DNA of 64,000 bases from Patescibacteria group bacterium. GTDB lineage: Bacteria; Patescibacteriota; UBA1384; GWA2-35-9; JBASTP01. Positions within the stretch are counted from its first letter, which is position 1. Each line of letters begins with the position of its first letter. A model generated the notes under the pieces. It ran no database searches and had not been told where the DNA came from. It was given only the letters and a program-made list of their open reading frames with translations. The DNA lies in the NCBI GenBank assembly GCA_049274945.1, contig JBASTP010000009.1:4441-68440 (forward strand). The letters run 5' to 3'. Below, piece by piece: positions 6,993 to 56,967 of this stretch. A program made the translations under genes and the position numbers.

Positions 6993-7361
6993 ATGGCGAG
7001 TGATTTTACTGAATTAAGGATTTGGCAAAGAGCCTCAGAACTAGCTACTAAGATCTATAATCTCACTAAAGGATTCCCTAAAGAGGAATTGTATGGACTA
7101 ACAAGTCAGTTAAGGAGAGCTGCCATTTCAGTGCCCGCAAATATTGCTGAAGGGTATGGTCGCCGGAATAAGCAAGAGATCATTCAATTCGTATTAATTA
7201 GTAGAGGTTCTCTTGCGGAGGTTAGGAGCCATATTGCCGTTGCAAAAAACCTAGGTTTTCTTCCTTTGCATGACGCGAATGAAATAGATCAGGAATATCA
7301 GGGTTTAGCTAAAGGTATTAATGTTTTCCTAAAATCTTTCAGAAACTCAAAGCCTATCTAG
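6993..7361 (+). CDS. Four-helix-bundle protein (23S rRNA intervening-sequence protein family)
   Basis: TELRIWQRA...LPKEELYGLTSQLRRAAISVPANIAEGYGR matches that family; the gene is markedly AT-rich versus its neighbours. Confidence 0.8.
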   Translation: MASDFTELRIWQRASELATKIYNLTKGFPKEELYGLTSQLRRAAISVPANIAEGYGRRNKQEIIQFVLISRGSLAEVRSHIAVAKNLGFLPLHDANEIDQEYQGLAKGINVFLKSFRNSKPI

Positions 7362-36992: not shown

Positions 36993-37760
36993 CACTTCCG
37001 AAGTGGGAATAGGTTACACATTGGTACATTTTTGACAATTGTTGTATGTTAGACTTATGGCACGCCGAAAAGAAATACTCGCAACCGGAGAAATTTACCA
37101 TGTGTTCAATAGGTCGATAGACAATAAAACTATTTTCAACTCCTCAATAGAGTTAAACCGCTTTTTGAATTTAATAAGGTTCTATGGATGTCTCAGGCCA
37201 ATCCGATTCTCTAAATTAACCGTCCAGCAACGAGAACTAATGATCAAGAAAAACGGTGGCGAGCCAATTGTTGAAATCATCTGTTATTGCTTGATGCCTA
37301 ATCATTTTCACTTATTGCTTAAACAGCTAAATGAAGGAGGCATTACCTCTTTTTTACGAAAAATCAGTGATGGATACAGTCGTTACTTTAATCTCATTCA
37401 TCACCGTGCTGGACCATTATTTCAAAACAATTTTAAAGCAGTCAGAATAGCTACTAACGAACAATTGCTCCATGTTTCTCGATACATTCATCTTAACCCT
37501 CTCACTGCCTATTTAGTTAATAATCTTGACGACTATCGTTGGTCTTCTTACCACGAATATATTAGCAGTAGTGACCTGAGGAATAGTGATTTCACCTGCA
37601 ACAAGAAATTAATTCTGGATCAATTCAAAAAGAAGTCCGGTTATCGAGCATTTGTGTTAGACAATGCGAATTACCAGAAAAAGTTAAAGGAAATCCAATA
37701 TCTTCTTATCGAGAATCCGACATAATTACCGAAGTGACACCTGAAGACACTTCGGAAGTG
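36993..37760 (+). mobile_element. REP-associated tyrosine transposase (RAYT) unit: gene plus flanking CACTTC(C/G)GAAGTG palindromes
   Basis: Palindrome CACTTCCGAAGTG at 36993..37005; hairpin CCGAAGTG-acacctgaaga-CACTTCGG at 37729..37756 immediately after the stop; AT-rich gene. Confidence 0.55.
37039..37725 (+). CDS. IS200/IS605-like Y1 HUH transposase of the RAYT (TnpA-REP) type
   Basis: HUH motif CYCLMPNHFHLLLK and catalytic-Tyr motif SRYIHLNPLTAYLV (compare E. coli RAYT HMHCIW / YIYINPVKHGWV). Confidence 0.8.
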   Translation: MLYVRLMARRKEILATGEIYHVFNRSIDNKTIFNSSIELNRFLNLIRFYGCLRPIRFSKLTVQQRELMIKKNGGEPIVEIICYCLMPNHFHLLLKQLNEGGITSFLRKISDGYSRYFNLIHHRAGPLFQNNFKAVRIATNEQLLHVSRYIHLNPLTAYLVNNLDDYRWSSYHEYISSSDLRNSDFTCNKKLILDQFKKKSGYRAFVLDNANYQKKLKEIQYLLIENPT

Positions 37761-39696: not shown

Positions 39697-41271
39697 ATGG
39701 ACGATTTTATTTACCTAGAACCAGACGAAGAGATCCCGACCATCCTCAAGAAGCTCAAAAAGAGCGCCAGCGAGTCGGTGGGATTGGTGGTGCCGCGCGG
39801 CTCGATCACCCTGCAGTCGGCGATCAATTTAAAGCTCCTCAAGCAAGAAGCGGTGAAGCTCGGCAAGGACATTGCGATTGTTACGGCAGATTCAATCGGC
39901 CAGCACCTGGCGGCGCAAGCCGGGCTCACGGTGTTTGAGTCGGTTAAAAGCAACCAGCCGATTGCGATGCGCAAGCGCGCGAGTGAGGATGAGCCAAAAT
40001 TGGGCGAGCCGGCCGAGCAAAAGCAAAATGGCCCGGCTGGCGTAAACGTCCGCCACTTCCAGACGGAAACCATTGAGCCTGAAAAACAGTATGTTGAGCC
40101 CGAGCGCACCCACGCACCGCTACCGGCCCGCCGGCGGGTAAAGGGAGCCGTGGTGGTGGCCATCGCCCTGGTTGTTCTCCTTCTTTATACCTTTATTGTG
40201 CCGCGCGTCACGATTACCGTGGAGGTGCTCGGCGAGCCGCTCGAGCGGGAGCTCACCTTGAGCGCGGCAACGGTTTCAGGCGCCGGCGAACAGGTGGTTC
40301 CGGCGACGCTCGAGGAGGCCACCAAGGAGCGAACCCAGACGTTCAAAACCACCGGCCAAAAGAACGTGGGCGAAAAGACCAAGGGCACGATCACCTTAAA
40401 TAACGCGTGGTCTTCCGATAATGTGTCGCTTGCCGCTGGCACTAAGCTCACGAGCAATGGGATAGCGTTTCGGCTCACCCAGGCGGTAATAATCCCGGGG
40501 GCATCGGTGAGTTTGGTGGCCGGCCAGGCCCAAACCAACCCGGGCAAAATCGACGGCGCGATCGAGGCCGAGGGATCGGGCGAAGCCGGCAACGTTGCGC
40601 CGGGCAAGTTCACCATTACCTCAATTGAAGCGATTAAACAAAGCAAGATCTACGGCGAGTCAACCACCAAACTCACCGGCGGCTCATCGCGGTTCATTGG
40701 CGTGGTGTCCGAGGAAGATCTGAAAACCGCCCGCACCACCCTCGAAGGCGAACTCAAAAACGAGCTCAAGGAAAGTATTGTCAGTAAAGCCGCCGGCCGC
40801 ATTGCGCTCGATCAAGCGGTCAAGCTCGAACAAATTGACGAGAAATCAAGTAAGCAAGTGGATGAGGAAGCGGGAGAGTTCGAACTCAAGCTCAAGGGTA
40901 ACCTCAAGGCGATTGTTTTTACCGAAGAAGATTTCCGCAAAGCATTCTTAAACGATCTAGCGCAGGAGATAGGCGAGGACCACGAGGTGGTGTTTGGGCC
41001 GTCAGACGAAATCACCACCACGGTAGAGGAAGCTGATTTTGAGAATGGCCGGCTCCAGTTGCGGGGGTTACTGAAAAGTCAGATCGCGCCCAAAATTGAC
41101 CAAGCGCAGTTAAAACAGACGATTCGTTTTAAGTCGTTCCCGGGCACCGAAAAAATCATCCGCGATTTGCCGCAAGTCAGCAATGTCGAAATCAGCATCT
41201 CACCGCGCGCTTCCCTTAAGCGGATTCCGCTTTTGCCCACCAACGTGAAGTTCGATATCAAGCATAAATAA
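39697..41271 (+). CDS. Bitopic membrane protein of unknown function (cytoplasmic N-domain, one TM, large extracytoplasmic domain) in the division/wall cluster
   Basis: TM VVVAIALVVLLLYTFIV around residue 150; no tubulin GGGTGTG motif, so not FtsZ. Confidence 0.55.
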   Translation: MDDFIYLEPDEEIPTILKKLKKSASESVGLVVPRGSITLQSAINLKLLKQEAVKLGKDIAIVTADSIGQHLAAQAGLTVFESVKSNQPIAMRKRASEDEPKLGEPAEQKQNGPAGVNVRHFQTETIEPEKQYVEPERTHAPLPARRRVKGAVVVAIALVVLLLYTFIVPRVTITVEVLGEPLERELTLSAATVSGAGEQVVPATLEEATKERTQTFKTTGQKNVGEKTKGTITLNNAWSSDNVSLAAGTKLTSNGIAFRLTQAVIIPGASVSLVAGQAQTNPGKIDGAIEAEGSGEAGNVAPGKFTITSIEAIKQSKIYGESTTKLTGGSSRFIGVVSEEDLKTARTTLEGELKNELKESIVSKAAGRIALDQAVKLEQIDEKSSKQVDEEAGEFELKLKGNLKAIVFTEEDFRKAFLNDLAQEIGEDHEVVFGPSDEITTTVEEADFENGRLQLRGLLKSQIAPKIDQAQLKQTIRFKSFPGTEKIIRDLPQVSNVEISISPRASLKRIPLLPTNVKFDIKHK

Positions 41272-41666
41272 TGTCAGTTCTTGCAATAGATTGGGGCAGC
41301 AAGCACGTGGGCCTGGCGATTTCCTACTCCGGAGTTTATGCCAAGGAGCTCACGGTTTTATCCAATAAGCCGATATTGTTTGATGAGCTAAAAAAGCTGA
41401 TTGCCGAACATCAAGTTTCCACCATCGTGGTGGGTTTACCAAAAAATAACGACGGCTCAGAAGCGGTGATTGCGCACAACGTGCGGAGTTTTGCCACCAA
41501 GCTCAAACGGCAGTTCAAGTTGCCGGTGATGTTTGAAAACGAGCACCTTACCAGTAAAGAGGCGGTTCGGTTGCTTGAGGGCGTGGTTGACCCGGCTGAT
41601 CCGCGGATTGATGCTGCCTCGGCCAAGCTCATTCTTGAACAGTATCTTGCCGACCGTATTATATAA
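41271..41666 (+). CDS. ruvX: Holliday-junction-resolvase-like protein YqgF/RuvX (pre-16S rRNA nuclease)
   Basis: MSVLAIDWGSKHVGLAIS...TIVVGLPKNNDGSE. Confidence 0.85.
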   Translation: MSVLAIDWGSKHVGLAISYSGVYAKELTVLSNKPILFDELKKLIAEHQVSTIVVGLPKNNDGSEAVIAHNVRSFATKLKRQFKLPVMFENEHLTSKEAVRLLEGVVDPADPRIDAASAKLILEQYLADRII

Positions 41667-41690
41667 GTCTTATATACTACAGTATATCAT

Positions 41691-42668
41691 ATGCTATCTA
41701 AATATCGTAAAATTTTGATGATTGTGCTTGCCGGAGTGGCCGCCCTCGCAGTTGTTTGGTACGTACTGCTCACCGCGCTCATGGCCCGGCCGGTGTCGGG
41801 TGAGATCAAAACCGAAGTGCTTGACATCAAGCCAGGCAGCTCGAGCTGGCAGACTGCCAAGGAGCTAAAACGCAAAAGGTTGATCCGATCGTCGGCGCAG
41901 TTTTGGTTTAATCTCAAGCTCACCGGCCGGGCAGTCCAAGCAGGCATCTACTATCTTTCGCCATCACAGTCCGGGCGGGAAATCATGCGGGTGATCGCCA
42001 AGGGTGAGGTCTCTGAATACCGCATTACCATCCCCGAGGGCTGGCGGATCGAGCAAATTGGGCAACTGCTTGAGAGCCGCAACATTGTTACTGCCGCGCC
42101 GTTCAATCAAGCTGCCCAGGGCAAAGAAGGCAAACTGTTCCCCGACACGTACCGGTTGAGCCTAGGAATCTCTGCGGCGGAGATTGTCGAAAAGATGACG
42201 GCTAATTTTGCCAAGCGAATTGAAGGGCTGAAACTAACGAACGAGCATCTGATTATCGCTTCGATTGTCGAGCGCGAGGCAAAGCATGATGAGGATCGGC
42301 CCAAAATGGCCGGGGTGTACAGTAATCGCCTTAAAATCGGCATGGCGCTCGAGGCCGATCCCACGGTGCAATATGCTCTCGATACTCAACGCCTTAAAGA
42401 CTCAACGCCTCAAGGCCTCAAAACCTTTAAGTTCTGGCAACCGCCTACCGCCGACCAAAACAAAAATTTTGAATCACTCTACAACACCTACCGGCATAAG
42501 GGGCTGCCGCCGGGTCCAATTTGCAATCCCGGCCTTAAATCGATTCAAGCCGCTCTGAACCCCGAAAAGCACGACTATTACTTTTTTTTCAACCTTCAGG
42601 ATGGTTCAACGATCTATAGTAAAACCCGCGACGAGCACGACGCCAACCGCAAGAAGTACGGGGTATGA
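41691..42668 (+). CDS. mltG: Endolytic murein transglycosylase MltG (YceG family)
   Basis: N-terminal TM; TIPEGWRIEQIG; YNTYRHKGLPPGPICNPG. Confidence 0.85.
   Translation: MLSKYRKILMIVLAGVAALAVVWYVLLTALMARPVSGEIKTEVLDIKPGSSSWQTAKELKRKRLIRSSAQFWFNLKLTGRAVQAGIYYLSPSQSGREIMRVIAKGEVSEYRITIPEGWRIEQIGQLLESRNIVTAAPFNQAAQGKEGKLFPDTYRLSLGISAAEIVEKMTANFAKRIEGLKLTNEHLIIASIVEREAKHDEDRPKMAGVYSNRLKIGMALEADPTVQYALDTQRLKDSTPQGLKTFKFWQPPTADQNKNFESLYNTYRHKGLPPGPICNPGLKSIQAALNPEKHDYYFFFNLQDGSTIYSKTRDEHDANRKKYGV
42621..42668. repeat. Direct repeat 1 (last 48 nt of mltG) bounding the AbiEii-module insertion
   Basis: aaaacccgcgacgagcacgacgccaaccgcaagaagtacggggtatga repeats, with ~5 differences, at 43574..43620. 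Confidence 0.6.
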
Positions 42669-42686
42669 TATGGTATAATTAAGACT

Positions 42687-42962
42687 ATGAAAACCGCCAA
42701 GTTGCCCTCGTTTTTCCAATCAATTTTTTGGGACACCCGGCTTGCAAATATTGACTACAAAAAACATTCCCGCTATGTGATCGAGCGTGTGCTCCAGTGG
42801 GGCAGGCCCCAGCACGTACGCTGGCTACTCGGCCACTATTCGAAACGCATGATTTTGCATGTGGCAAAAACCGGGCGGGAAGTCCGCCCAGAGCGCAAAT
42901 ATTTCTGGAAGTTCTATTTAACTCACCAACGAAAAAAACGAACAAAATTATATGCACACTGA
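42687..42962 (+). CDS. Small basic hypothetical protein, candidate partner (antitoxin/regulator) of the AbiEii-like gene
   Basis: 91-aa ORF directly upstream of, and overlapping by 11 nt, the AbiEii-like gene; no family recognised; AT-rich. Confidence 0.4.
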   Translation: MKTAKLPSFFQSIFWDTRLANIDYKKHSRYVIERVLQWGRPQHVRWLLGHYSKRMILHVAKTGREVRPERKYFWKFYLTHQRKKRTKLYAH

Positions 42963-43575
42963 AGCGCTTGCTCCAAAAACAAAAAAAGCTTTCGAGCTAC
43001 TTGGAACCGTGGAGATGATCCAACAATTTTATTTGGCAGGTGGTACTGCGGCCGCATTATATCTTGGCCATCGGTCCTCCCACGATCTTGATTTTTTTTC
43101 AACTCAAAGATTTGATTCGGAATTACTAAGACTTGAACTCGAAAAGGTAGGGAATCTTGCAATCGAATTCAAAAAAAAAGATACCTTGCTAGGAAAGTTT
43201 AACGGGGTAAAAATTAGTTTTTTTTATTACCCGTACCCCTTGATTCAACCGTTGGCTTACTTTGACTCAGTTGCTATCACCAATCAAAAAGATATTGCAG
43301 CAATGAAAATTAATGCGATTGCTGGTCGCGGGATTAAACGAGATTTCATTGATCTCTACTCACTCATGGAAGCCAATCATTGGCGATTGATTGAAGTAAT
43401 AGCGTGGTTCATGAAAAAATACAAAAAATCAAATTACAACATGGTGCACGTTCTCAATGCGTTAATTTATTTTGAGGATGCTGACAAAACCCCGATTCCA
43501 AAAATGATCACACCGATTGATTGGGGAAAGATTAAAGAATATTTCCGCGATGCGGTCAAAGAAATTGAACTGTAA
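42952..43575 (+). CDS. AbiEii/AbiGii-family nucleotidyltransferase (type IV toxin-antitoxin toxin-like; DUF1814)
   Basis: FYLAGGTAAALYLGHRSSHDLDFFS matches the family hallmark (GGTAL...R.SxDLDF); strongly AT-rich versus flanks. Confidence 0.7.
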   Translation: MHTEALAPKTKKAFELLGTVEMIQQFYLAGGTAAALYLGHRSSHDLDFFSTQRFDSELLRLELEKVGNLAIEFKKKDTLLGKFNGVKISFFYYPYPLIQPLAYFDSVAITNQKDIAAMKINAIAGRGIKRDFIDLYSLMEANHWRLIEVIAWFMKKYKKSNYNMVHVLNALIYFEDADKTPIPKMITPIDWGKIKEYFRDAVKEIEL

Positions 43576-43620
43576 AACCCGCGACGAGCACAACGCGAAC
43601 CGCAGAAGTATGGGGTCTGA
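43574..43620. repeat. Direct repeat 2: degenerate pseudo-copy of the mltG 3' end
   Basis: aaaacccgcgacgagcacaacgcgaaccgcagaagtatggggtctga; a 1-nt deletion breaks the frame. Confidence 0.6.
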
Positions 43621-43664
43621 TCTGCCTTTGACATATTCCTAAATTTTGCTACACTGGCTCTACC

Positions 43665-44708
43665 ATGCTCAACCGTCTGTTCGGTGTTTTTTCTCACGAC
43701 ATGGGTATAGATCTTGGTACAGCCAATACGCTGGTCTATGTGAGGGGAAAAGGGATTGTGATCAACGAGCCGTCCGTGGTGGCGATCAACCAAAAAACCA
43801 AGCAAATTCTGGCGATCGGCGAGGAAGCGCGGAAGATGGTGGGGCGTACGCCGGCCCACATTGTGGCAATTCGACCGCTCGTTGACGGTGTGGTCTCGGA
43901 TTTCGAGGTGACCCAAGAGATGCTCAAATATTTTATCGGTAAAGTGCACGACGAACGCTTTTCTTTGTTTCCCCGCCCCCGCGTCGTGATTGGCATTCCC
44001 TATGGCGTTACCGAGGTGGAGCGCCGTGCGGTGGAAGAAGCGGCCATCAATGCCGGCGCCCGCGAGGTATTCCTCATTGAGGAACCGCTTGCCGCGGCGA
44101 TCGGCGCGCGGTTGCCGGTACAGGAAGCTGGTGGCTCTTTTATTGTGGACATTGGCGGCGGTACCACCGAGGTAGCGGTGATCTCGCTCGGCGGCGTGGT
44201 GGCAAGCCGCTCAATCCGGATCGCCGGCGATGAAATGGACCAAGACATTATCACTTTTGCCCGCGACCAGTACAATTTGCTGCTCGGTGAAAAAACGGCC
44301 GAGGGCATCAAGATTGCAATCGGTTCTGCCATTCCGTTGCAAGAAAAACTTGAAACGGTGATGCGGGGTCGCGACTTGGTGCTCGGACTGCCTAAAGAAG
44401 TTTCCGTGAGCTCGGATGAGATCCGCAAAGCGCTTTCCCGTTCGGTTACGACGATCGTTGACGCCGTAAAAAACACGCTTGAGGAAACGCCGCCCGAACT
44501 CGTGGCGGACATTATGCAACGGGGAATCGTGCTGGCCGGCGGCGGTGCGCTCCTGCGCGGCCTTGATAAATTGATCAAACAAGCAACCCAGATTGATGTT
44601 CATATCGCCGATGATCCGCTCACGGCCGTGGTGCGGGGAACCGGGTTAGTGCTCGAGGATCTCGATAGTCTCCGCGAAGTATTACTGCCCACGGAGTTTG
44701 CTCGTTAG
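43665..44708 (+). CDS. mreB: Rod shape-determining protein MreB
   Basis: GIDLGTANTLVYVRGKGIVINEPSVVAI; DIGGGTTEVAVISLGG; VLAGGGALLRGLDK. Confidence 0.9.
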   Translation: MLNRLFGVFSHDMGIDLGTANTLVYVRGKGIVINEPSVVAINQKTKQILAIGEEARKMVGRTPAHIVAIRPLVDGVVSDFEVTQEMLKYFIGKVHDERFSLFPRPRVVIGIPYGVTEVERRAVEEAAINAGAREVFLIEEPLAAAIGARLPVQEAGGSFIVDIGGGTTEVAVISLGGVVASRSIRIAGDEMDQDIITFARDQYNLLLGEKTAEGIKIAIGSAIPLQEKLETVMRGRDLVLGLPKEVSVSSDEIRKALSRSVTTIVDAVKNTLEETPPELVADIMQRGIVLAGGGALLRGLDKLIKQATQIDVHIADDPLTAVVRGTGLVLEDLDSLREVLLPTEFAR

Positions 44709-44711
44709 GCT

Positions 44712-45494
44712 ATGGGCCGCCCGCAGCTTATTGCTATTTTGATCGTAATTGCCGTCACGGCCGCTGTTGCTCCGGCCTCAGTGGGGCTTAATATCAAACG
44801 ATCCGGGCAACGGGTCGTTACTCCGCTTACCCGGCCTTTTGCGCAGGGCTATGCGAGCGTAGCTTCTTTTTTTCATGCCATTGCAATATTGGGATCGATC
44901 ATTCCCCAGTCAAACGATCTCAAGCGCGAGAACTTGCAACTCCAGGCGCGTCTTAGTGAGCTTGAAGAGGTGGTACGTGAAAATGATACGCTCCGCCGCG
45001 AGCTTGCTGCGCGTGAGGCTGCCAAGGAGCGGAAATTCCTCTCTGCCCAGGTGGTTGGCCATTCGTCGGTTAAATTTGTGCCGGAGCTCGTGATCGATCG
45101 AGGTGCACGCGATGGGGTAGCCCACTATCAGCCCGTCCTCGTTGCCGGCCAGCTTATTGGGGTAGTGGTGGATGCCGGTGAAACCACTGCTACGGTGCGG
45201 CTCATTACCGCCCACAATTCGGTGGTTCCGGTAATCCTTGCTAACTCCCGGGCAACCGGTTTGCTGCGCGGTGGCTTGCGTGGGCTAGTGGTGGAAGATT
45301 TGCCGACCGATGTCGAGGTACACCCCGGCGAGCCGGTGGTTACCGAAAAGATCAGCCCGTTTGAATATAAGGGGATCCAAGTTGGGACGATGGAGAAGGT
45401 GGTCAGTTCGCAGTCCGAAATTTTCCAGGTGGTTTCGGTTAACTCACCCATTGATTTCACTACGATCAGTTTTGTAACGGTGGTTATCCAATGA
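44712..45494 (+). CDS. mreC: Rod shape-determining protein MreC
   Basis: N-terminal TM, coiled coil (LKRENLQLQARLSELEE), beta-rich C-domain; position after mreB. Confidence 0.8.
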   Translation: MGRPQLIAILIVIAVTAAVAPASVGLNIKRSGQRVVTPLTRPFAQGYASVASFFHAIAILGSIIPQSNDLKRENLQLQARLSELEEVVRENDTLRRELAAREAAKERKFLSAQVVGHSSVKFVPELVIDRGARDGVAHYQPVLVAGQLIGVVVDAGETTATVRLITAHNSVVPVILANSRATGLLRGGLRGLVVEDLPTDVEVHPGEPVVTEKISPFEYKGIQVGTMEKVVSSQSEIFQVVSVNSPIDFTTISFVTVVIQ

Positions 45495-50074: not shown

Positions 50075-50728
50075 GTGCCAGTCGAGAAAAAGCAAATCTA
50101 TCGGCAACTGGGCGTCGTATCGGTAAAATTATTATTGCTATCGCTCTTTGATGTTGCGGCACTCTTCGGAAGTTTGGATCATAGAAAACGGTATGCTCGA
50201 GCATATGACGAATATTTAACGTGGCGAGCCAAGGATTATCGCCGTTTTTATCGCCTTGTCTATCGTTTAAAAACCGCGGGGCTTATAGCAACGTATCAAG
50301 AAGGTAAACAACGATTCATAGAGTTGACACCCGAAGGAAAGCGAAAAATTGTCCACTACCTTTTTGAAGATGGGAAAGTGCCGTTGCCCAAGTCGTGGGA
50401 CGGTAAATGGCGCGTCGTAGTGTTCGACATACCGGAAAGTCAAAAGCCAGTCCGTGATGCGGTGCGCCAGTTACTCAATCGGGTTGGATTTTACCAACTG
50501 CAGCGGAGTGTTTATATCTATCCTCATGACTGCGTAGGAATTATCCGATACCTCGAACAGATCTATGATATTAACGAATATGTTCAGTTCATGGTTGCCG
50601 AACGGGTAGAAACTGAAGAAGACCTCATTGCTTTATTCCATGATCGGGGGATTATTAAACGAATAGTAAAGCTATCTGGTAAAAATAAATTAGGCAATAA
50701 CGAATCGACATATAGAAACGATCGCTGA
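50075..50728 (+). CDS. PaaX-like winged-helix regulator (Cas2-like C-terminal fold)
   Basis: WDGKWRVVVFDIPESQKPVRDAVRQLLNRVGFYQLQRSVYIYPHD matches the PaaX C-terminal domain. Confidence 0.6.
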   Translation: MPVEKKQIYRQLGVVSVKLLLLSLFDVAALFGSLDHRKRYARAYDEYLTWRAKDYRRFYRLVYRLKTAGLIATYQEGKQRFIELTPEGKRKIVHYLFEDGKVPLPKSWDGKWRVVVFDIPESQKPVRDAVRQLLNRVGFYQLQRSVYIYPHDCVGIIRYLEQIYDINEYVQFMVAERVETEEDLIALFHDRGIIKRIVKLSGKNKLGNNESTYRNDR

Positions 50729-55052: not shown

Positions 55053-56039
55053 ATGAATCCAATCATTCCCCAAAAATTAAAGAGAGGCGATACCGTTGCA
55101 GTAATTGCTCCTTCTCGTTCTTTGGCAATGATTTCGCAAGAAACCCAAGATATAGCTAATCAGAGATTTGCAGAACTGGGTTTAACACTTGCCTTCGGTA
55201 AACATGTTCAAGAAAGAGACGAATTTGAATCATCAAATATAGAATCTCGTATCCAGGATCTGCACGCAGCTTTCACCGATTCTAATATCAAGGCTATTCT
55301 GACAGTCATCGGCGGTTTTAATTCCAATCAGCTCCTACGATATATTAATTGGGATTTACTTAAAGATAATCCTAAAATTTTTTGTGGCTACTCTGATATT
55401 ACGGTACTGAACAATGCGATCTTTACTAAGACTGGTCTGGTGAGCTATTCTGGGCCTCATTATTCTGCATTCGGAGAAAAGCTTTATCTCGATTACACAC
55501 TCGAATACTTTAAAAAATGTTTGATGTCCGATGAATCGTTTACTATTGAGCCGGCTAAAGATTGGTCTGATGATTTTTGGTGGAAGAATCAAGATGCTAG
55601 GGAACCAATAAAAAATGATGGCTGGCTGGTAATTAACGAAGGAAAAGCAAGCGGCACAATTCTCGGCGGAAATCTTTGTACGTTGAATCTTCTGCAGGGC
55701 ACAGAATATTTCCCATCGCTGGAAAATTCAATCCTCTTTTTAGAGGATGATGAAGAATCAATGCCATATCATTTCGATCGCGATTTGCAGTCAATTATTC
55801 ACTTGCCGGATTTTCCCAAAGTCAAAGGTTTGGTGATTGGCCGCTTCCAAAAAGCCAGCAAGATGAATAGCGAGCTACTCACAAAAATTATCAAAACGAA
55901 AAAAGAACTCGATAGCATCCCAGTGCTCGCATATGTTGATTTTGGCCATACGAGCCCCATGATTACCTTCCCAATCGGCGGAAAATTGGAAATGCAGGCG
56001 AGTGAATCCAGCTCGATCTTGCGAGTGGTAAAACATTAA
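55053..56039 (+). CDS. LD-carboxypeptidase (peptidase S66; LdcA/MccF-like)
   Basis: LKRGDTVAVIAPSRS N-terminus and S66 fold spacing; AT-rich gene. Confidence 0.75.
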   Translation: MNPIIPQKLKRGDTVAVIAPSRSLAMISQETQDIANQRFAELGLTLAFGKHVQERDEFESSNIESRIQDLHAAFTDSNIKAILTVIGGFNSNQLLRYINWDLLKDNPKIFCGYSDITVLNNAIFTKTGLVSYSGPHYSAFGEKLYLDYTLEYFKKCLMSDESFTIEPAKDWSDDFWWKNQDAREPIKNDGWLVINEGKASGTILGGNLCTLNLLQGTEYFPSLENSILFLEDDEESMPYHFDRDLQSIIHLPDFPKVKGLVIGRFQKASKMNSELLTKIIKTKKELDSIPVLAYVDFGHTSPMITFPIGGKLEMQASESSSILRVVKH

Positions 56040-56041
56040 AT

Positions 56042-56542
56042 ATGAAATTTATTTTTACAGTGAAAATTAAAGAAGGTCTAAACTGGATAGTCGCAATCCT
56101 CCGCAAGCACAAAATTCCGTTTCAAATTACAGGTGGGTTAGCTGCAAGGGTATATGGCTCAAAACGGCCGATCAACGATATTGATATAGATATTCCTGAA
56201 GAATATTTTGACCGTATCCTGAAAGATGTAAAACCATATATTATTTTTGGTCCTGCTCACTATCGAGATAAACGTTGGGATTTGCAGCTTCTCACTCTCA
56301 ACTATCATGGACAAGAAATTGATATCGGTGGTGCATATCAAACTAAGATTAATGATGCAAGAACTGGTAAATGGCGTGCGATGCCTAGCGATTTATCAAG
56401 AATAGTTAAGCACGAATTATTCGATATTACTTTGCCAGTTACTAATCCAGAGGATTTGGTAGATTATAAGCGTATGCTAGTAGGTGATCATCAAAAAGAA
56501 GATATCAGCGCTATTCTCAAATTCTTAAGAAAATCAGAATAG
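56042..56542 (+). CDS. Small nucleotidyltransferase of the ANT(2'')/Lnu(A)-like family
   Basis: FQITGGLAARVYGSKRPINDIDIDIPEE parallels ANT(2'')-Ia WIGGGWAIDARLG...HDDIDLTFP and Lnu(A) WLDGGWGVD...HRDIDID. Confidence 0.55.
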   Translation: MKFIFTVKIKEGLNWIVAILRKHKIPFQITGGLAARVYGSKRPINDIDIDIPEEYFDRILKDVKPYIIFGPAHYRDKRWDLQLLTLNYHGQEIDIGGAYQTKINDARTGKWRAMPSDLSRIVKHELFDITLPVTNPEDLVDYKRMLVGDHQKEDISAILKFLRKSE

Positions 56543-56547
56543 AGAAT

Positions 56548-56967
56548 ATGAAACTGGGCCACGTGCATATTAAAGTGCGAGACATTAAGCGAGCAGAAAC
56601 GTTTTATACCAAACTGCTGGGGTTTAAGGTGACGGAGCGATTTGAGGATCAGTATGTCTTCCTCGCCTTTGACAAAGCGCACCATGATTTAGCGCTAAAA
56701 AATGTTGGCGTTGATGCCCCTATTCCATCGCATAATTCGACCGGGCTTTACCACTTTGCATTTGAGGTGGCAAATGAGAATGAACTAAAGGCGCTATATC
56801 AAAAATTGAAACAAAACGGTATAGTGCTTACGCCCGTAGATCATGGCATATCAAAAGCATTTTATTTTTCCGATCCGGATGGTAATGGAATAGAAGTATA
56901 CGTTGATACTCGCCACAAGCGCACCGCGTGGGGCGGAAAAGAACTAGTTTTAGATTTGGAAAATTAG
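56548..56967 (+). CDS. VOC-family protein (glyoxalase / bleomycin-resistance / dioxygenase fold)
   Basis: MKLGHVHIKVRDIKRAETFYTKLLGFKV...YHFAFEV. Confidence 0.8.
   Translation: MKLGHVHIKVRDIKRAETFYTKLLGFKVTERFEDQYVFLAFDKAHHDLALKNVGVDAPIPSHNSTGLYHFAFEVANENELKALYQKLKQNGIVLTPVDHGISKAFYFSDPDGNGIEVYVDTRHKRTAWGGKELVLDLEN

What the first reader, a model, noticed from the sequence alone, without database searches (positions are those of the whole stretch)
42621..43620. AbiEii-like nucleotidyltransferase module inserted into the 3' end of mltG, bounded by ~47-bp direct repeats
The last 48 nt of mltG (42621..42668) recur at 43574..43620 with about 5 substitutions and a 1-nt deletion that breaks the frame. 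Between the two copies lie a 91-aa ORF and an AbiEii/DUF1814-like NTase (GGTAAALYLGHRSSHDLDFF). Both are much more AT-rich than the flanks. This looks like an integration that reconstituted the mltG 3' end and displaced a decaying original copy, yet no integrase is present. The small upstream ORF does not resemble AbiEi, so the pair may be a non-canonical type IV TA or abortive-infection module.
Basis: seen in the sequence. Interest (0 to 1): 0.7.

Follow-up and report, generated by a model that had tools for sequence, protein, structure and literature searches.

The report
Toxin-antitoxin-like cassette with recombination scar
A small two-gene cassette, a likely tRNA-modifying nucleotidyltransferase toxin plus an uncharacterised DUF6922 partner, was recombined into the end of the cell-wall gene mltG in an uncultured Patescibacterium, leaving the displaced original gene end as a scar; the feature is real and instructive, but it is a variant of a known kind of system.

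Summary
The last ~50 nt of mltG (R1, 42619-42672) recur at 43572-43624 (R2) with 4 substitutions and a 1-nt deletion. No such match occurs in shuffled sequence.

Between the copies lies a ~905-bp cassette: its own extended -10 promoter, a 91-aa DUF6922 protein and an overlapping 207-aa AbiEii/MenT-type (DUF1814) nucleotidyltransferase. Both genes are under purifying selection (dN/dS ~0.1).

Related Berkelbacteria-like contigs show:
- the same cassette after mltG without R2;
- the same cassette after rplL;
- decayed copies in which only the NTase is broken;
- one relative with R1, a promoter scar and R2 but no cassette;
- other TA-like cassettes at the same site.

R1 and the 200 bp before it are ~99% identical to one relative, whereas the body of mltG is ~10% diverged, as is R2. 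So R2 looks like the native gene end. It was probably displaced when "mltG end + cassette" was imported by homology-anchored recombination, with the right junction at a 9-nt microhomology (GTAAAACCC). No integrase is needed.

The NTase keeps the MenT catalytic signature RxSxDxD, K and D. DUF6922 is a helical protein with no solved relative and no AbiEi features. It is probably a new antitoxin class for a known toxin family. Toxicity and mechanism are untested.

The parts
41691..42668 (+). mltG (YceG family, 325 aa), intact. Its last ~200 bp (from ~42467) belong to a tract ~99% identical to relative L165.
   Evidence: Pfam PF02618 E 6e-78. The C-terminus SKTRDEHDANRKKYGV is conserved in 17 orthologues. 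Mosaic identity to L165.
42619..42672 (+). R1: the functional last 49 nt of mltG plus its stop codon and a few bases. It is the upstream copy of the direct repeat.
   Evidence: It is 54/54 identical to the L165 copy.
42671..42679 (+). Cassette promoter, an extended -10 (TGGTATAAT). It lies 7 nt upstream of the ATG, so the mRNA is probably leaderless. This is the left end of the cassette.
   Evidence: Conserved at the left end of the cassette in L003, L167, L165, L166 and L004, and in the L172 scar. The promoter function is inferred from sequence only.
42687..42962 (+). 91-aa DUF6922 protein, the putative antitoxin or neutraliser.
   Evidence: Pfam PF21956 E 6e-16, above the cutoff. 680 relatives at E<=1e-3 among 50%-identity representatives. 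AF2 model with pLDDT 90.6, a five-helix bundle. No PDB relative. dN/dS ~0.1.
42952..43575 (+). 207-aa short DUF1814 (AbiEii/MenT-like) nucleotidyltransferase, the putative toxin. It overlaps the upstream ORF by 11 nt, and its stop codon TAA lies inside R2.
   Evidence: Pfam PF08843 E 6e-11 and PADLOC AbiEii models. AF2 model pLDDT 96.5. Best PDB fold matches are JHP933, MenT1 and MenT4. Invariant GG, H40-R41-x-S43-x-D45-L46-D47, K119, D131 and D134. dN/dS ~0.1.
43572..43624 (+). R2: a frame-broken relic of an mltG 3' end (KTRDEHNANR|KYGV*), lying immediately upstream of the mreB -35 box.
   Evidence: Relative to R1 it has 3 synonymous changes and one D>N change that also occurs in orthologues. 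It is ~10% diverged from the R1 of L165, like the body of mltG.
43628..43655 (+). mreB promoter (TTGACA, 16 nt, TG-n-TACACT), the native sequence that once followed the mltG stop codon.
   Evidence: Consensus scan, 10 of 12 matches. Function is inferred.
43665..44708 (+). mreB, the first gene of the mreBCD-PBP2 cluster and the right-hand flank of the variable slot.
   Evidence: Pfam PF06723 E 2.5e-146. ruvX-mltG-(one gene)-mreB synteny is seen in Berkelbacteria contigs L170 and L171.

Best explanation
What it is. The feature is a compact cassette of about 905 bp. It has its own -10 promoter, a 91-aa DUF6922 protein and an overlapping 207-aa DUF1814 (AbiEii/MenT-type) nucleotidyltransferase. 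It occupies a variable slot just downstream of mltG in a Berkelbacteria-like Patescibacterium.

How it got there (inferred from comparisons). A block consisting of the last ~200 bp of mltG plus the cassette was imported by recombination from a closely related lineage in which the cassette sits directly after the mltG stop codon, as in L165. The left crossover was homologous, inside mltG. The right end was joined illegitimately, or through very short homology, at a 9-nt microhomology: GTAAAACCC, formed by the cassette's stop-codon region and the mltG codons Ser-Lys-Thr. That point lies 49 nt upstream of the recipient's stop codon. The recipient's own gene end was therefore pushed downstream as R2 and has since lost one base. 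This is homology-facilitated illegitimate recombination, or the equivalent single crossover of a circularised fragment. No integrase is involved.

How it works (inferred from family membership; not tested). The NTase is a toxin that adds nucleotides to tRNA 3' ends and blocks translation. DUF6922 is its cognate neutraliser. It probably binds the toxin and may induce autophosphorylation of the invariant Ser43 in the RxSxDxD active-site loop (type VII logic). The pair acts as an addiction and/or abortive-infection module.
For: Structure:
- The repeat and both ORFs are confirmed.
- The cassette is delimited at 42671-43580 by an 83% nt match to L003, which sits in a different (rplL) context. L167 shares that context.

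Variable slot after mltG:
- L165: cassette, then a 271-aa gene and a secreted-protein gene; no R2.
- L166: decayed cassette.
- L086: no cassette.
- L172: R1', then promoter + ATG scar, then R2', then a Polbeta (MntA-like) NTase module.
- L173: a divergent DUF6922-like gene plus a truncated NTase.
- L170 and L171: mltG, one gene, then mreB.

Import of R1 with the cassette:
- Window versus L165 shows 2 differences in 42467-42682 against ~10% divergence in 41459-42466. There is 1 difference in 42876-43508.
- R2 is 10% diverged from R1, and 3 of its 4 substitutions are synonymous.

Microhomology:
- The cassette tail is TAAAACCC in L003 and TGAAAACC in L167. The mltG sequence is AGTAAAACCC.
- The L172 scar joins ATG|AAAACC to R2'.

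Function:
- PF08843 and PADLOC AbiEii hits.
- Fold matches to JHP933, MenT1 and MenT4.
- Invariant R41xS43xD45xD47, K119 and D131/D134 match MenT1 R37xT39xD41xD43, K137 and D152 and MenT3 R76/S78 (PMC11375011).
- dN/dS is ~0.1 for both genes.
- In three independent decayed copies (L166, P0311, L173) the NTase catalytic part is lost while the DUF6922 part stays intact.
- Longer DUF6922 proteins carry an N-terminal HTH, mirroring AbiEi architecture.
- DUF6922-like small genes precede short AbiEii genes on the Aquifex ece1 plasmid and on Bacteroides plasmids.

Precedent: HFIR and single-crossover duplications are documented in PMC5361080 and PMC3240628.
Against: - No genome with the predicted empty site was found, that is, an intact mltG carrying the R2 allele directly followed by the mreB promoter.
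- The identity pattern against L165 is a multi-tract mosaic. The last 67 bp of the NTase are only 75% identical. L165 is therefore not the exact donor, and more than one recombination event occurred.
- The synonymous bias in R2 rests on only 4 substitutions (p ~0.1).
- The cassette tail 'AACCC' in L003 could have been carried from an R2-type junction rather than being native to the cassette. That would weaken the microhomology argument.
- Toxicity, neutralisation, tRNA modification and phosphorylation are all untested.
- A physical DUF6922-NTase interaction was not modelled.
- Gene-pair association was seen in about 8 loci only, not surveyed systematically.
Confidence: 0.6

Rival explanations
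1. Site-specific integration. An integrative element whose attachment site is the 3' end of mltG integrated and reconstituted the gene. R1 and R2 are attL and attR. The integrase and the rest of the element were later deleted, leaving only the two-gene module.
For: Direct repeats made of a gene's 3' end, with an intact upstream copy and a displaced downstream copy, are the classic footprint of such elements. In L165 further non-core genes follow the cassette.
Against: - Nothing but the cassette lies between the repeats, and the cassette ends coincide with the repeat ends.
- The same cassette occurs after mltG with no R2 (L165, L166) and after rplL with no flanking repeat (L003, L167).
- L086 shows that the secreted-protein gene following the cassette in L165 and L166 is native flank, not element cargo.
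- No integrase is present in any of the loci examined.
- Unrelated cassettes occupy the same site in L172 and L173.
Confidence: 0.1
2. In-situ duplication. The ~50-bp repeat was generated at the moment of insertion, either as a long target-site duplication or by replication slippage or template switching. R2 has since simply decayed by neutral drift.
For: The repeats flank the insert exactly. R2 has a frameshift, as expected for a non-functional copy. L172 R1' and R2' share the lineage-specific CATAAT in their first 26 nt, which would fit duplication within a lineage, or gene conversion.
Against: - R1 is 54/54 identical to L165 and sits in a 216-bp tract with only 2 differences, whereas the adjacent mltG body and R2 are each ~10% diverged. 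That is hard to obtain from drift of R2 alone.
- 3 of the 4 R2 substitutions are synonymous, and the fourth (D>N) is an allele seen in orthologues.
- No transposition machinery is present.
Confidence: 0.15
3. Assembly chimera. The MAG contig was mis-joined through a cassette shared by two co-occurring strains, so mltG-cassette and cassette-R2-mreB belong to different genomes.
For: In an independent Logan assembly of SRR28002976 the contigs break inside the cassette: L001 ends 38 bp after mltG, and L002 starts 226 bp before mreB. A second cassette variant is present in the same sample (L004). Identity to L165 is mosaic.
Against: - R2 is itself mltG-derived and sits directly before mreB, so an mltG end was next to mreB whatever the assembly did.
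- L002 independently contains the NTase 3' end, R2 and mreB. L001 independently contains mltG and the cassette's left end.
- ruvX-mltG-x-mreB synteny exists in L170 and L171.
- Even if the contig were chimeric, the R2 relic and the cassette would still need the same explanation.
Confidence: 0.05
4. Not a toxin-antitoxin or defence module. The NTase is a non-toxic modifying enzyme, for example a small-molecule or RNA nucleotidyltransferase such as ANT(2'')-Ia, and DUF6922 is an accessory or regulatory subunit.
For: ANT(2'')-Ia is also among the fold matches. There is no experimental toxicity. NCBIfam and PHROGs give no functional call. DUF6922 has no known function.
Against: - The best sequence-family and fold matches are AbiEii, MenT and JHP933.
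- The architecture is an overlapping small-gene/NTase-gene operon.
- The cassette is patchy and mobile in distribution, and sits in a slot that also holds an MntA-like module.
- Decay is asymmetric: the NTase is always the broken gene and the partner is kept.
- On the Aquifex plasmid the pair lies among CopG and MazE-PIN modules.
Confidence: 0.12

Closest known systems
MenAT1 (MenA1-MenT1, Rv0078B/Rv0078A) of Mycobacterium tuberculosis
   Same: Both have a short (~190-207 aa) DUF1814 NTase with R-x-S/T-x-D-x-D, K and D active-site residues. MenT1 is among the best fold matches. In both, a small partner without a wHTH is encoded immediately upstream. MenA1 neutralises by binding and inducing autophosphorylation of T39 (PMC11375011).
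   Different: The partner here is DUF6922, a five-helix bundle with no detectable similarity to MenA1. Sequence identity of the NTase to MenT1 is ~15%, detectable only by fold. No biochemistry exists for this pair.
AbiE (AbiEi-AbiEii) of Streptococcus agalactiae / Lactococcus
   Same: The NTase hits the AbiEii Pfam and PADLOC models. The operon is bicistronic with the neutraliser upstream. The expected role is abortive infection or toxin-antitoxin. Longer DUF6922 proteins have an N-terminal HTH followed by a C-terminal domain, like AbiEi.
   Different: There is no COG5340/AbiEi antitoxin and no HTH in the 91-aa protein. The NTase is ~25% shorter than canonical AbiEii. PADLOC-type rules would not call this an AbiE system.
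Homology-facilitated illegitimate recombination, as invoked for orphan 3' gene ends in T6SS effector-immunity and Rhs arrays
   Same: A conserved upstream gene serves as the anchor. The incoming module displaces the resident 3' end, which persists downstream as an orphan fragment (PMC5361080). Short duplications of the homologous end also arise from single crossovers (PMC3240628).
   Different: Here the displaced piece is only 49 nt of a housekeeping gene, not an immunity gene. The mechanism is inferred from sequence comparison in uncultured CPR bacteria, not observed.
Integrative elements that target gene 3' ends (tRNA, tmRNA or protein-gene att sites)
   Same: Imperfect direct repeats made of the target gene's 3' end flank the insert, and the gene is kept intact.
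   Different: There is no integrase. The insert is 0.9 kb. The same cassette occurs elsewhere without repeats.

Membership tests
AbiE abortive-infection / TA system | DUF1814 (AbiEii, PF08843) nucleotidyltransferase toxin | tested here: met
   PF08843 E 6e-11, 43.1 bits against a cutoff of 22.5. 12 PADLOC AbiEii models hit. Fold matches to DUF1814 structures.
AbiE abortive-infection / TA system | AbiEi (COG5340) antitoxin with an N-terminal winged HTH, encoded upstream | tested here: not met
AbiE abortive-infection / TA system | Toxicity neutralised by the partner; phage protection | not testable with these tools
   This needs expression and rescue assays and phage assays.
MenAT-type DUF1814 toxin (type VII logic) | Active-site signature: GG, R-x-[ST]-x-D-x-D with a phosphoacceptor Ser/Thr, a catalytic Lys and a distal Asp | tested here: met
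   G30, G31, R41, S43, D45, D47, K119, D131 and D134 are invariant in 27 family members. The spacing equals MenT1 R37/T39/D41/D43, K137 and D152 and MenT3 R76/S78 (PMC11375011).
MenAT-type DUF1814 toxin (type VII logic) | MenT/JHP933-like fold | tested here: met
   Foldseek against PDB: 4o8s E 1.9e-5, 8an5_B (MenT1) E 1e-4, 6y56 (MenT4) E 6e-4, with TM ~0.5. Sequence-only PDB searches found nothing.
MenAT-type DUF1814 toxin (type VII logic) | tRNA 3'-end nucleotide addition; antitoxin-induced autophosphorylation | not testable with these tools
   These are biochemical assays.
DUF6922 (PF21956) | Match to the family profile above the gathering score | tested here: met
   E 6.1e-16, 58.1 bits against a cutoff of 27, residues 10-59. 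680 relatives at E<=1e-3.
Integrative mobile element with att sites | Flanking direct repeats derived from the target | tested here: met
   R1 and R2.
Integrative mobile element with att sites | Element-encoded integrase or recombinase; repeats present wherever the element is inserted | tested here: not met
   There is no recombinase between the repeats or in related loci. The cassette occurs without R2 in L165 and L166, and without any repeat after rplL in L003 and L167.
Homology-facilitated illegitimate recombination product | Donor-like tract on the anchored side that ends in homologous sequence | tested here: met
   42467-42682 has 2 differences from L165, against ~10% divergence upstream.
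Homology-facilitated illegitimate recombination product | Microhomology at the illegitimate junction | tested here: inconclusive
   GTAAAACCC (9 nt) is shared by the cassette end and mltG at the junction. The cassette tail is TAAAACCC in L003 and TGAAAACC in L167, but differs in L165 and L166. Whether the tail is native to the cassette cannot be proven.
Homology-facilitated illegitimate recombination product | Existence of the pre-insertion (empty) recipient allele | tested here: inconclusive
   No contig with an intact R2-type mltG end followed by the mreB promoter was found. The closest cassette-free relative, L086, has a different downstream gene.

The most novel reading that the evidence does not exclude
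DUF6922 defines a previously unrecognised, HTH-less class of neutraliser for a minimal (~205 aa) DUF1814 tRNA-nucleotidyltransferase toxin. It acts by inducing autophosphorylation of the invariant Ser43. The pair would be a widespread TA/abortive-infection module of CPR/Patescibacteria, with remote versions on Aquifex and Bacteroides plasmids, that current defence-system finders miss because they require AbiEi. In addition, the 3' end of mltG would be a recurrent capture site where such cassettes are exchanged by homology-anchored illegitimate recombination.
Probability: 0.3. Interest if true: 0.6.

Novelty: new variant of a known kind. Interest (0 to 1): 0.42.

Why it matters
If DUF6922 is confirmed as the cognate partner, it becomes another structurally unrelated antitoxin class for DUF1814 (AbiEii/MenT) toxins. 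That would be a useful test of the proposed general rule that unrelated antitoxins all work by inducing toxin autophosphorylation.

The NTase subfamily is abundant in Patescibacteria: more than 2,500 clusters at 90% identity. These organisms have few recognised defence systems, so such pairs may be an under-counted part of their TA and defence repertoire.

The R1/R2 scar, together with the set of related loci, gives an unusually clear sequence-level record of how a cassette is gained, exchanged, decayed and lost at one chromosomal hotspot in uncultured bacteria, without any dedicated recombinase.

Tried and rejected
Searches that led nowhere:
- The exact-product look-up of the NTase and of P0001 found nothing.
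- The genome-contig scan with mltG returned only relatives at 40% identity or less, so no close species representative was found.
- Viral-contig scans found no relative of the NTase, and the DUF6922 alignment was too variable to scan.
- PHROGs and NCBIfam gave no hits.
- Rfam gave no RNA family in 41000-45000.
- PDB sequence searches with the NTase, its profile and its motif peptide found nothing meaningful.
- The afdb50 fold library was unavailable.
- The plasmid tblastn with DUF6922 gave no hit.
- No paper mentions DUF6922.

Leads rejected:
- The 271-aa gene of L165 is not homologous to the 265-aa gene between mltG and mreB in L170 and L171.
- R2 as a regulatory RNA or terminator: there is no Rfam hit and no terminator-like site on the + strand.
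- The 41-aa ORF 43517-43642 that reads through R2: there is no support for it as a gene.
Full report
**1. Observation**

The window comes from a Patescibacteria MAG. The 91-aa protein is identical to NCBI 'MAG: hypothetical protein WAP74_03635 [Patescibacteria group bacterium]'. The closest named relatives are Candidatus Berkelbacteria.

The gene order around the finding is:
- ruvX, 41271-41666
- mltG, 41691-42668
- a 91-aa ORF, 42687-42962
- a 207-aa ORF, 42952-43575
- mreB, 43665-44708, followed by mreC, mreD and PBP2

The reported repeat is real. Bases 42619-42651 recur at 43572-43604 with 2 mismatches, and 0 of 100 shuffles gave any match. It is the only local repeat of this kind in the 64 kb.

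Read to the stop codon, the two copies differ by four substitutions and a 1-nt deletion. Similarity runs a few bases past the stop, so R1 is 42619-42672 and R2 is 43572-43624.

The statement that both genes are much more AT-rich is only half right. The NTase is 38% GC, the small ORF 47%, and the flanks 53-56%.

**2. What the two genes are**

*The small ORF.* It is a member of Pfam DUF6922 (PF21956, E 6e-16). It has no AbiEi, NCBIfam, PADLOC or PHROG match.

An exhaustive HMMER search found 680 relatives at E<=1e-3 among 50%-identity representatives. Most are 75-115 aa long.

Longer family members carry an N-terminal HTH (HTH_11/DeoR/HTH_17) in front of DUF6922. That is the AbiEi-type arrangement of a DNA-binding domain followed by a neutralising domain. 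The 91-aa form lacks the HTH. No paper in the library mentions DUF6922.

*The NTase.* It matches Pfam AbiEii (PF08843, E 6e-11) and twelve PADLOC AbiEii models. It belongs to a large subfamily of 204-213-aa proteins, with more than 2,500 clusters, mostly from Patescibacteria.

Sequence searches of the PDB find nothing. The AlphaFold model (pLDDT 96.5) finds as best structural matches the DUF1814 proteins JHP933, MenT1 and MenT4 (E 2e-5 to 6e-4, TM ~0.5).

In a 27-member alignment the invariant residues are G30-G31, H40-R41-x-S43-x-D45-L46-D47, K119, R126, D131 and D134. This reproduces the MenT1 pattern R37-x-T39-x-D41-x-D43, K137 and D152, and MenT3 R76/S78. In those toxins the Ser/Thr is the phosphoacceptor through which antitoxins switch the toxin off (PMC11375011). 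The same mechanism has been reported for AbiEii T65 (bioRxiv 10.64898/2026.01.19.700257).

The GenBank model of this NTase (186 aa, P0004) starts at an internal Met. The conserved N-terminus supports the 207-aa form.

**3. The pair is a unit, it is functional, and it behaves like a toxin-antitoxin**

The two genes overlap by 11 nt. They are preceded by TGGTATAAT 7 nt before the ATG.

The same promoter-plus-two-gene unit was found in four related contexts:
- After rplL in a Berkelbacteria genome (L003), at 83% nt identity. The match spans window 42671 to 43580 and delimits the cassette.
- In the orthologous rplL context in L167, L168 and L169.
- After mltG in L165.
- As a more diverged, partial copy in L004.

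Between contexts, dN/dS is about 0.1 for both genes, so both encode selected proteins.

Three independently decayed copies all lost the catalytic part of the NTase while keeping the DUF6922 part intact:
- the 214-aa fusion in L166
- the 187-aa fusion P0311
- L173, where a divergent DUF6922-like gene (hhalign E 4e-5) is followed by an NTase truncated after ~36 residues

This asymmetry is what one expects if the NTase is the toxin and DUF6922 its neutraliser. That conclusion is an inference.

Outside CPR, short AbiEii genes are also immediately preceded by small proteins with remote DUF6922 similarity. This holds for Aquifex aeolicus plasmid ece1 (hhalign probability 86%, E 5e-6) and more weakly for Bacteroides plasmids (Pfam E 0.03, hhalign E 6e-4). 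On ece1 the pair lies among CopG and MazE-PIN modules.

**4. The mltG-downstream slot is a hotspot**

Close mltG relatives show a different content immediately after the stop codon in almost every lineage.

| Locus | mltG aa identity | What follows the mltG stop codon |
|---|---|---|
| L165 | 89% | Cassette, then a 271-aa gene and a large secreted protein; no R2 |
| L166 | 80% | Decayed cassette, then the secreted protein; no R2 |
| L086 | 73% | No cassette; mltG is followed after ~50 nt by the secreted-protein gene |
| L172 | 83% | R1', a 21-nt copy of the cassette promoter plus ATG, then R2', then a Polbeta/MntA-like NTase and a further small gene |
| L173 | 77% | A divergent DUF6922-like/NTase pair |
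| L170, L171 | 59% | One unrelated 258-265-aa gene, then mreB |

L086 is thus an empty site for the L165/L166 arrangement.

Synteny of mltG with mreB is therefore ancestral in the wider group. R2, an mltG end directly in front of the mreB -35 box, shows that in the window's lineage mltG once ran straight into the mreB promoter.

**5. How R2 arose**

Against L165, the window is a mosaic.

| Window segment | Identity to L165 |
|---|---|
| 40209-41408 | 98-100% |
| 41459-42466 (3' part of ruvX and most of mltG) | About 10% diverged |
| 42467-42682 (end of mltG, R1, promoter) | 2 differences |
| 42683-42875 | 92% |
| 42876-43508 | 1 difference |
| 43509-43575 | 75% |
| Beyond 43575 | No homology |

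R1 is 54/54 identical to the L165 copy. R2 is 10% diverged from it, the same level as the body of the window's mltG.

Of the four R2 substitutions, three are synonymous. The fourth (D>N) is an allele present in orthologues.

The simplest reading is that R2 is the native continuation of this lineage's mltG. R1 would have arrived, with the cassette, from an L165-like lineage in which the cassette lies directly after mltG.

The right-hand junction falls where the cassette end (…CTGTAA) and mltG (…AGTAAAACCC…) share GTAAAACCC. The rplL-context copies end TAAAACCC (L003) and TGAAAACC (L167), so this tail probably belongs to the cassette.

In L172 the scar joins the cassette's ATG|AAAACC to R2'. This is either a microhomology-mediated deletion of the cassette or an independent junction at the same mltG site.

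This is the footprint of homology-facilitated illegitimate recombination, or of a single crossover by a circularised fragment. Both leave displaced or duplicated 3' ends (PMC5361080 and PMC3240628).

The steps are inferred. I did not find the predicted empty-site allele. L165 is not the exact donor, because the last 67 bp of the NTase differ. The synonymous bias rests on only four sites.

**6. Alternatives**

- *Integrase-borne element with att sites.* This is unlikely. Nothing but the cassette lies between the repeats. The cassette occurs without repeats elsewhere. No recombinase is present. Unrelated cassettes use the same slot.
- *In-situ duplication followed by drift.* This does not explain why R1 belongs to a near-identical imported tract while R2 matches the divergence of the resident gene.
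- *Assembly chimera.* This is worth excluding, because an independent assembly breaks inside the cassette and a second cassette variant is in the same sample. However, both junctions are present in independent contigs, and R2 itself testifies to an mltG-mreB adjacency.
- *A non-toxic role for the NTase.* This cannot be excluded without experiments.

**7. Comparison with known systems, and verdict**

The toxin is a member of the DUF1814 AbiEii/MenT superfamily, with family profile, fold and active-site signature all met. The system fails the AbiE membership test on the antitoxin.

Known partners of DUF1814 toxins are COG5340 (AbiEi, MenA3, MenA4), COG4861, and the orphan small protein MenA1. 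DUF6922 is none of these.

In how it probably works, the closest analogue is MenAT1: a short toxin with a small partner that lacks an HTH. I therefore rate it a new variant of a known kind.

The repeat is a genuine and instructive recombination scar, not an att site. Interest is moderate. Nothing here overturns expectations. It does offer a candidate new antitoxin family for an actively studied toxin class, and a clean natural example of recombinase-free cassette capture in CPR bacteria.

Noticed in passing
L172:960-1130: A relative (mltG 83% identical) carries the mltG end (R1'), a 21-nt copy of the cassette promoter plus ATG, and then directly a second mltG-end copy (R2'). The cassette is gone, or was never completed, with the junction at AAAACC. 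A Polbeta/MntA-like NTase (153 aa) and the start of a HepT-like gene follow, so different TA-like modules are stacked at this site.
   Followed up: partly
L166:1161-1805 and protein P0311: These are in-frame fusions of an intact DUF6922 N-terminal part with only the C-terminal half of the NTase, after deletion of the catalytic GG...DxD region. They arose independently in two lineages.
   Followed up: partly
window 42952-43575: The GenBank protein for this gene (P0004, 186 aa) starts at an internal Met. The 21 upstream residues are conserved across the family, so the 207-aa start, which overlaps the DUF6922 gene by 11 nt, is the likely true one.
   Followed up: yes
window 42671-42689, 43650-43667; L165:3440-3457: Several genes here have a -10 box only 7-9 nt upstream of the ATG and no Shine-Dalgarno sequence. 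Examples are the cassette, mreB and the L165 271-aa gene. This suggests that leaderless or near-leaderless mRNAs are common in this organism.
   Followed up: no
window 42384-42415 (inside mltG): There is a 16-nt tandem direct repeat (ACTCAACGCCTTAAAG / ACTCAACGCCTCAAGG) at exactly the place where L165 has a 45-nt (15-aa) insertion. Orthologues also carry two alternative sequence blocks here (ADPTVQYALDT... and ADPGTQYAVDS...), so this is a recombination-prone variable loop of MltG.
   Followed up: partly
window 37039-37725: An AT-rich (36% GC) 228-aa ORF has an IS200-like Y1 transposase domain (PF01797, E 1e-6). It lies about 5 kb upstream of the finding and shows no evident link to the cassette.
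   Followed up: no
window 55053-56967: A second AT-rich islet (36-43% GC) encodes an LD-carboxypeptidase, a 166-aa NTase with a weak ANT(2'')-like match (PF10706, E 8.5e-4, below the cutoff) and a glyoxalase/bleomycin-resistance-fold protein. It is possibly another acquired block.
   Followed up: no
window 6993-7361 and 50075-50728: An AT-rich 122-aa '23S rRNA intervening-sequence protein' (four-helix bundle, PF05635) and a 217-aa protein with a PaaX central Cas2-like domain (PF20803). Both are small, compositionally deviant genes.
   Followed up: no
DUF6922 profile (alignment A4): There is a weak, repeated sequence resemblance of the KH..YIIERILE.G motif to Pumilio/PUF RNA-binding repeats (whole-sequence E 0.005). 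It is not supported by fold comparison and is probably coincidental, but noteworthy given that the toxin's presumed substrate is tRNA.
   Followed up: partly
L174:1158-1962 (Aquifex aeolicus plasmid ece1): An 82-aa hypothetical protein overlapping a 206-aa AbiEii-family gene is a remote DUF6922 relative (hhalign probability 86%). This extends the two-gene architecture to a cultured hyperthermophile, where it could be tested.
   Followed up: partly
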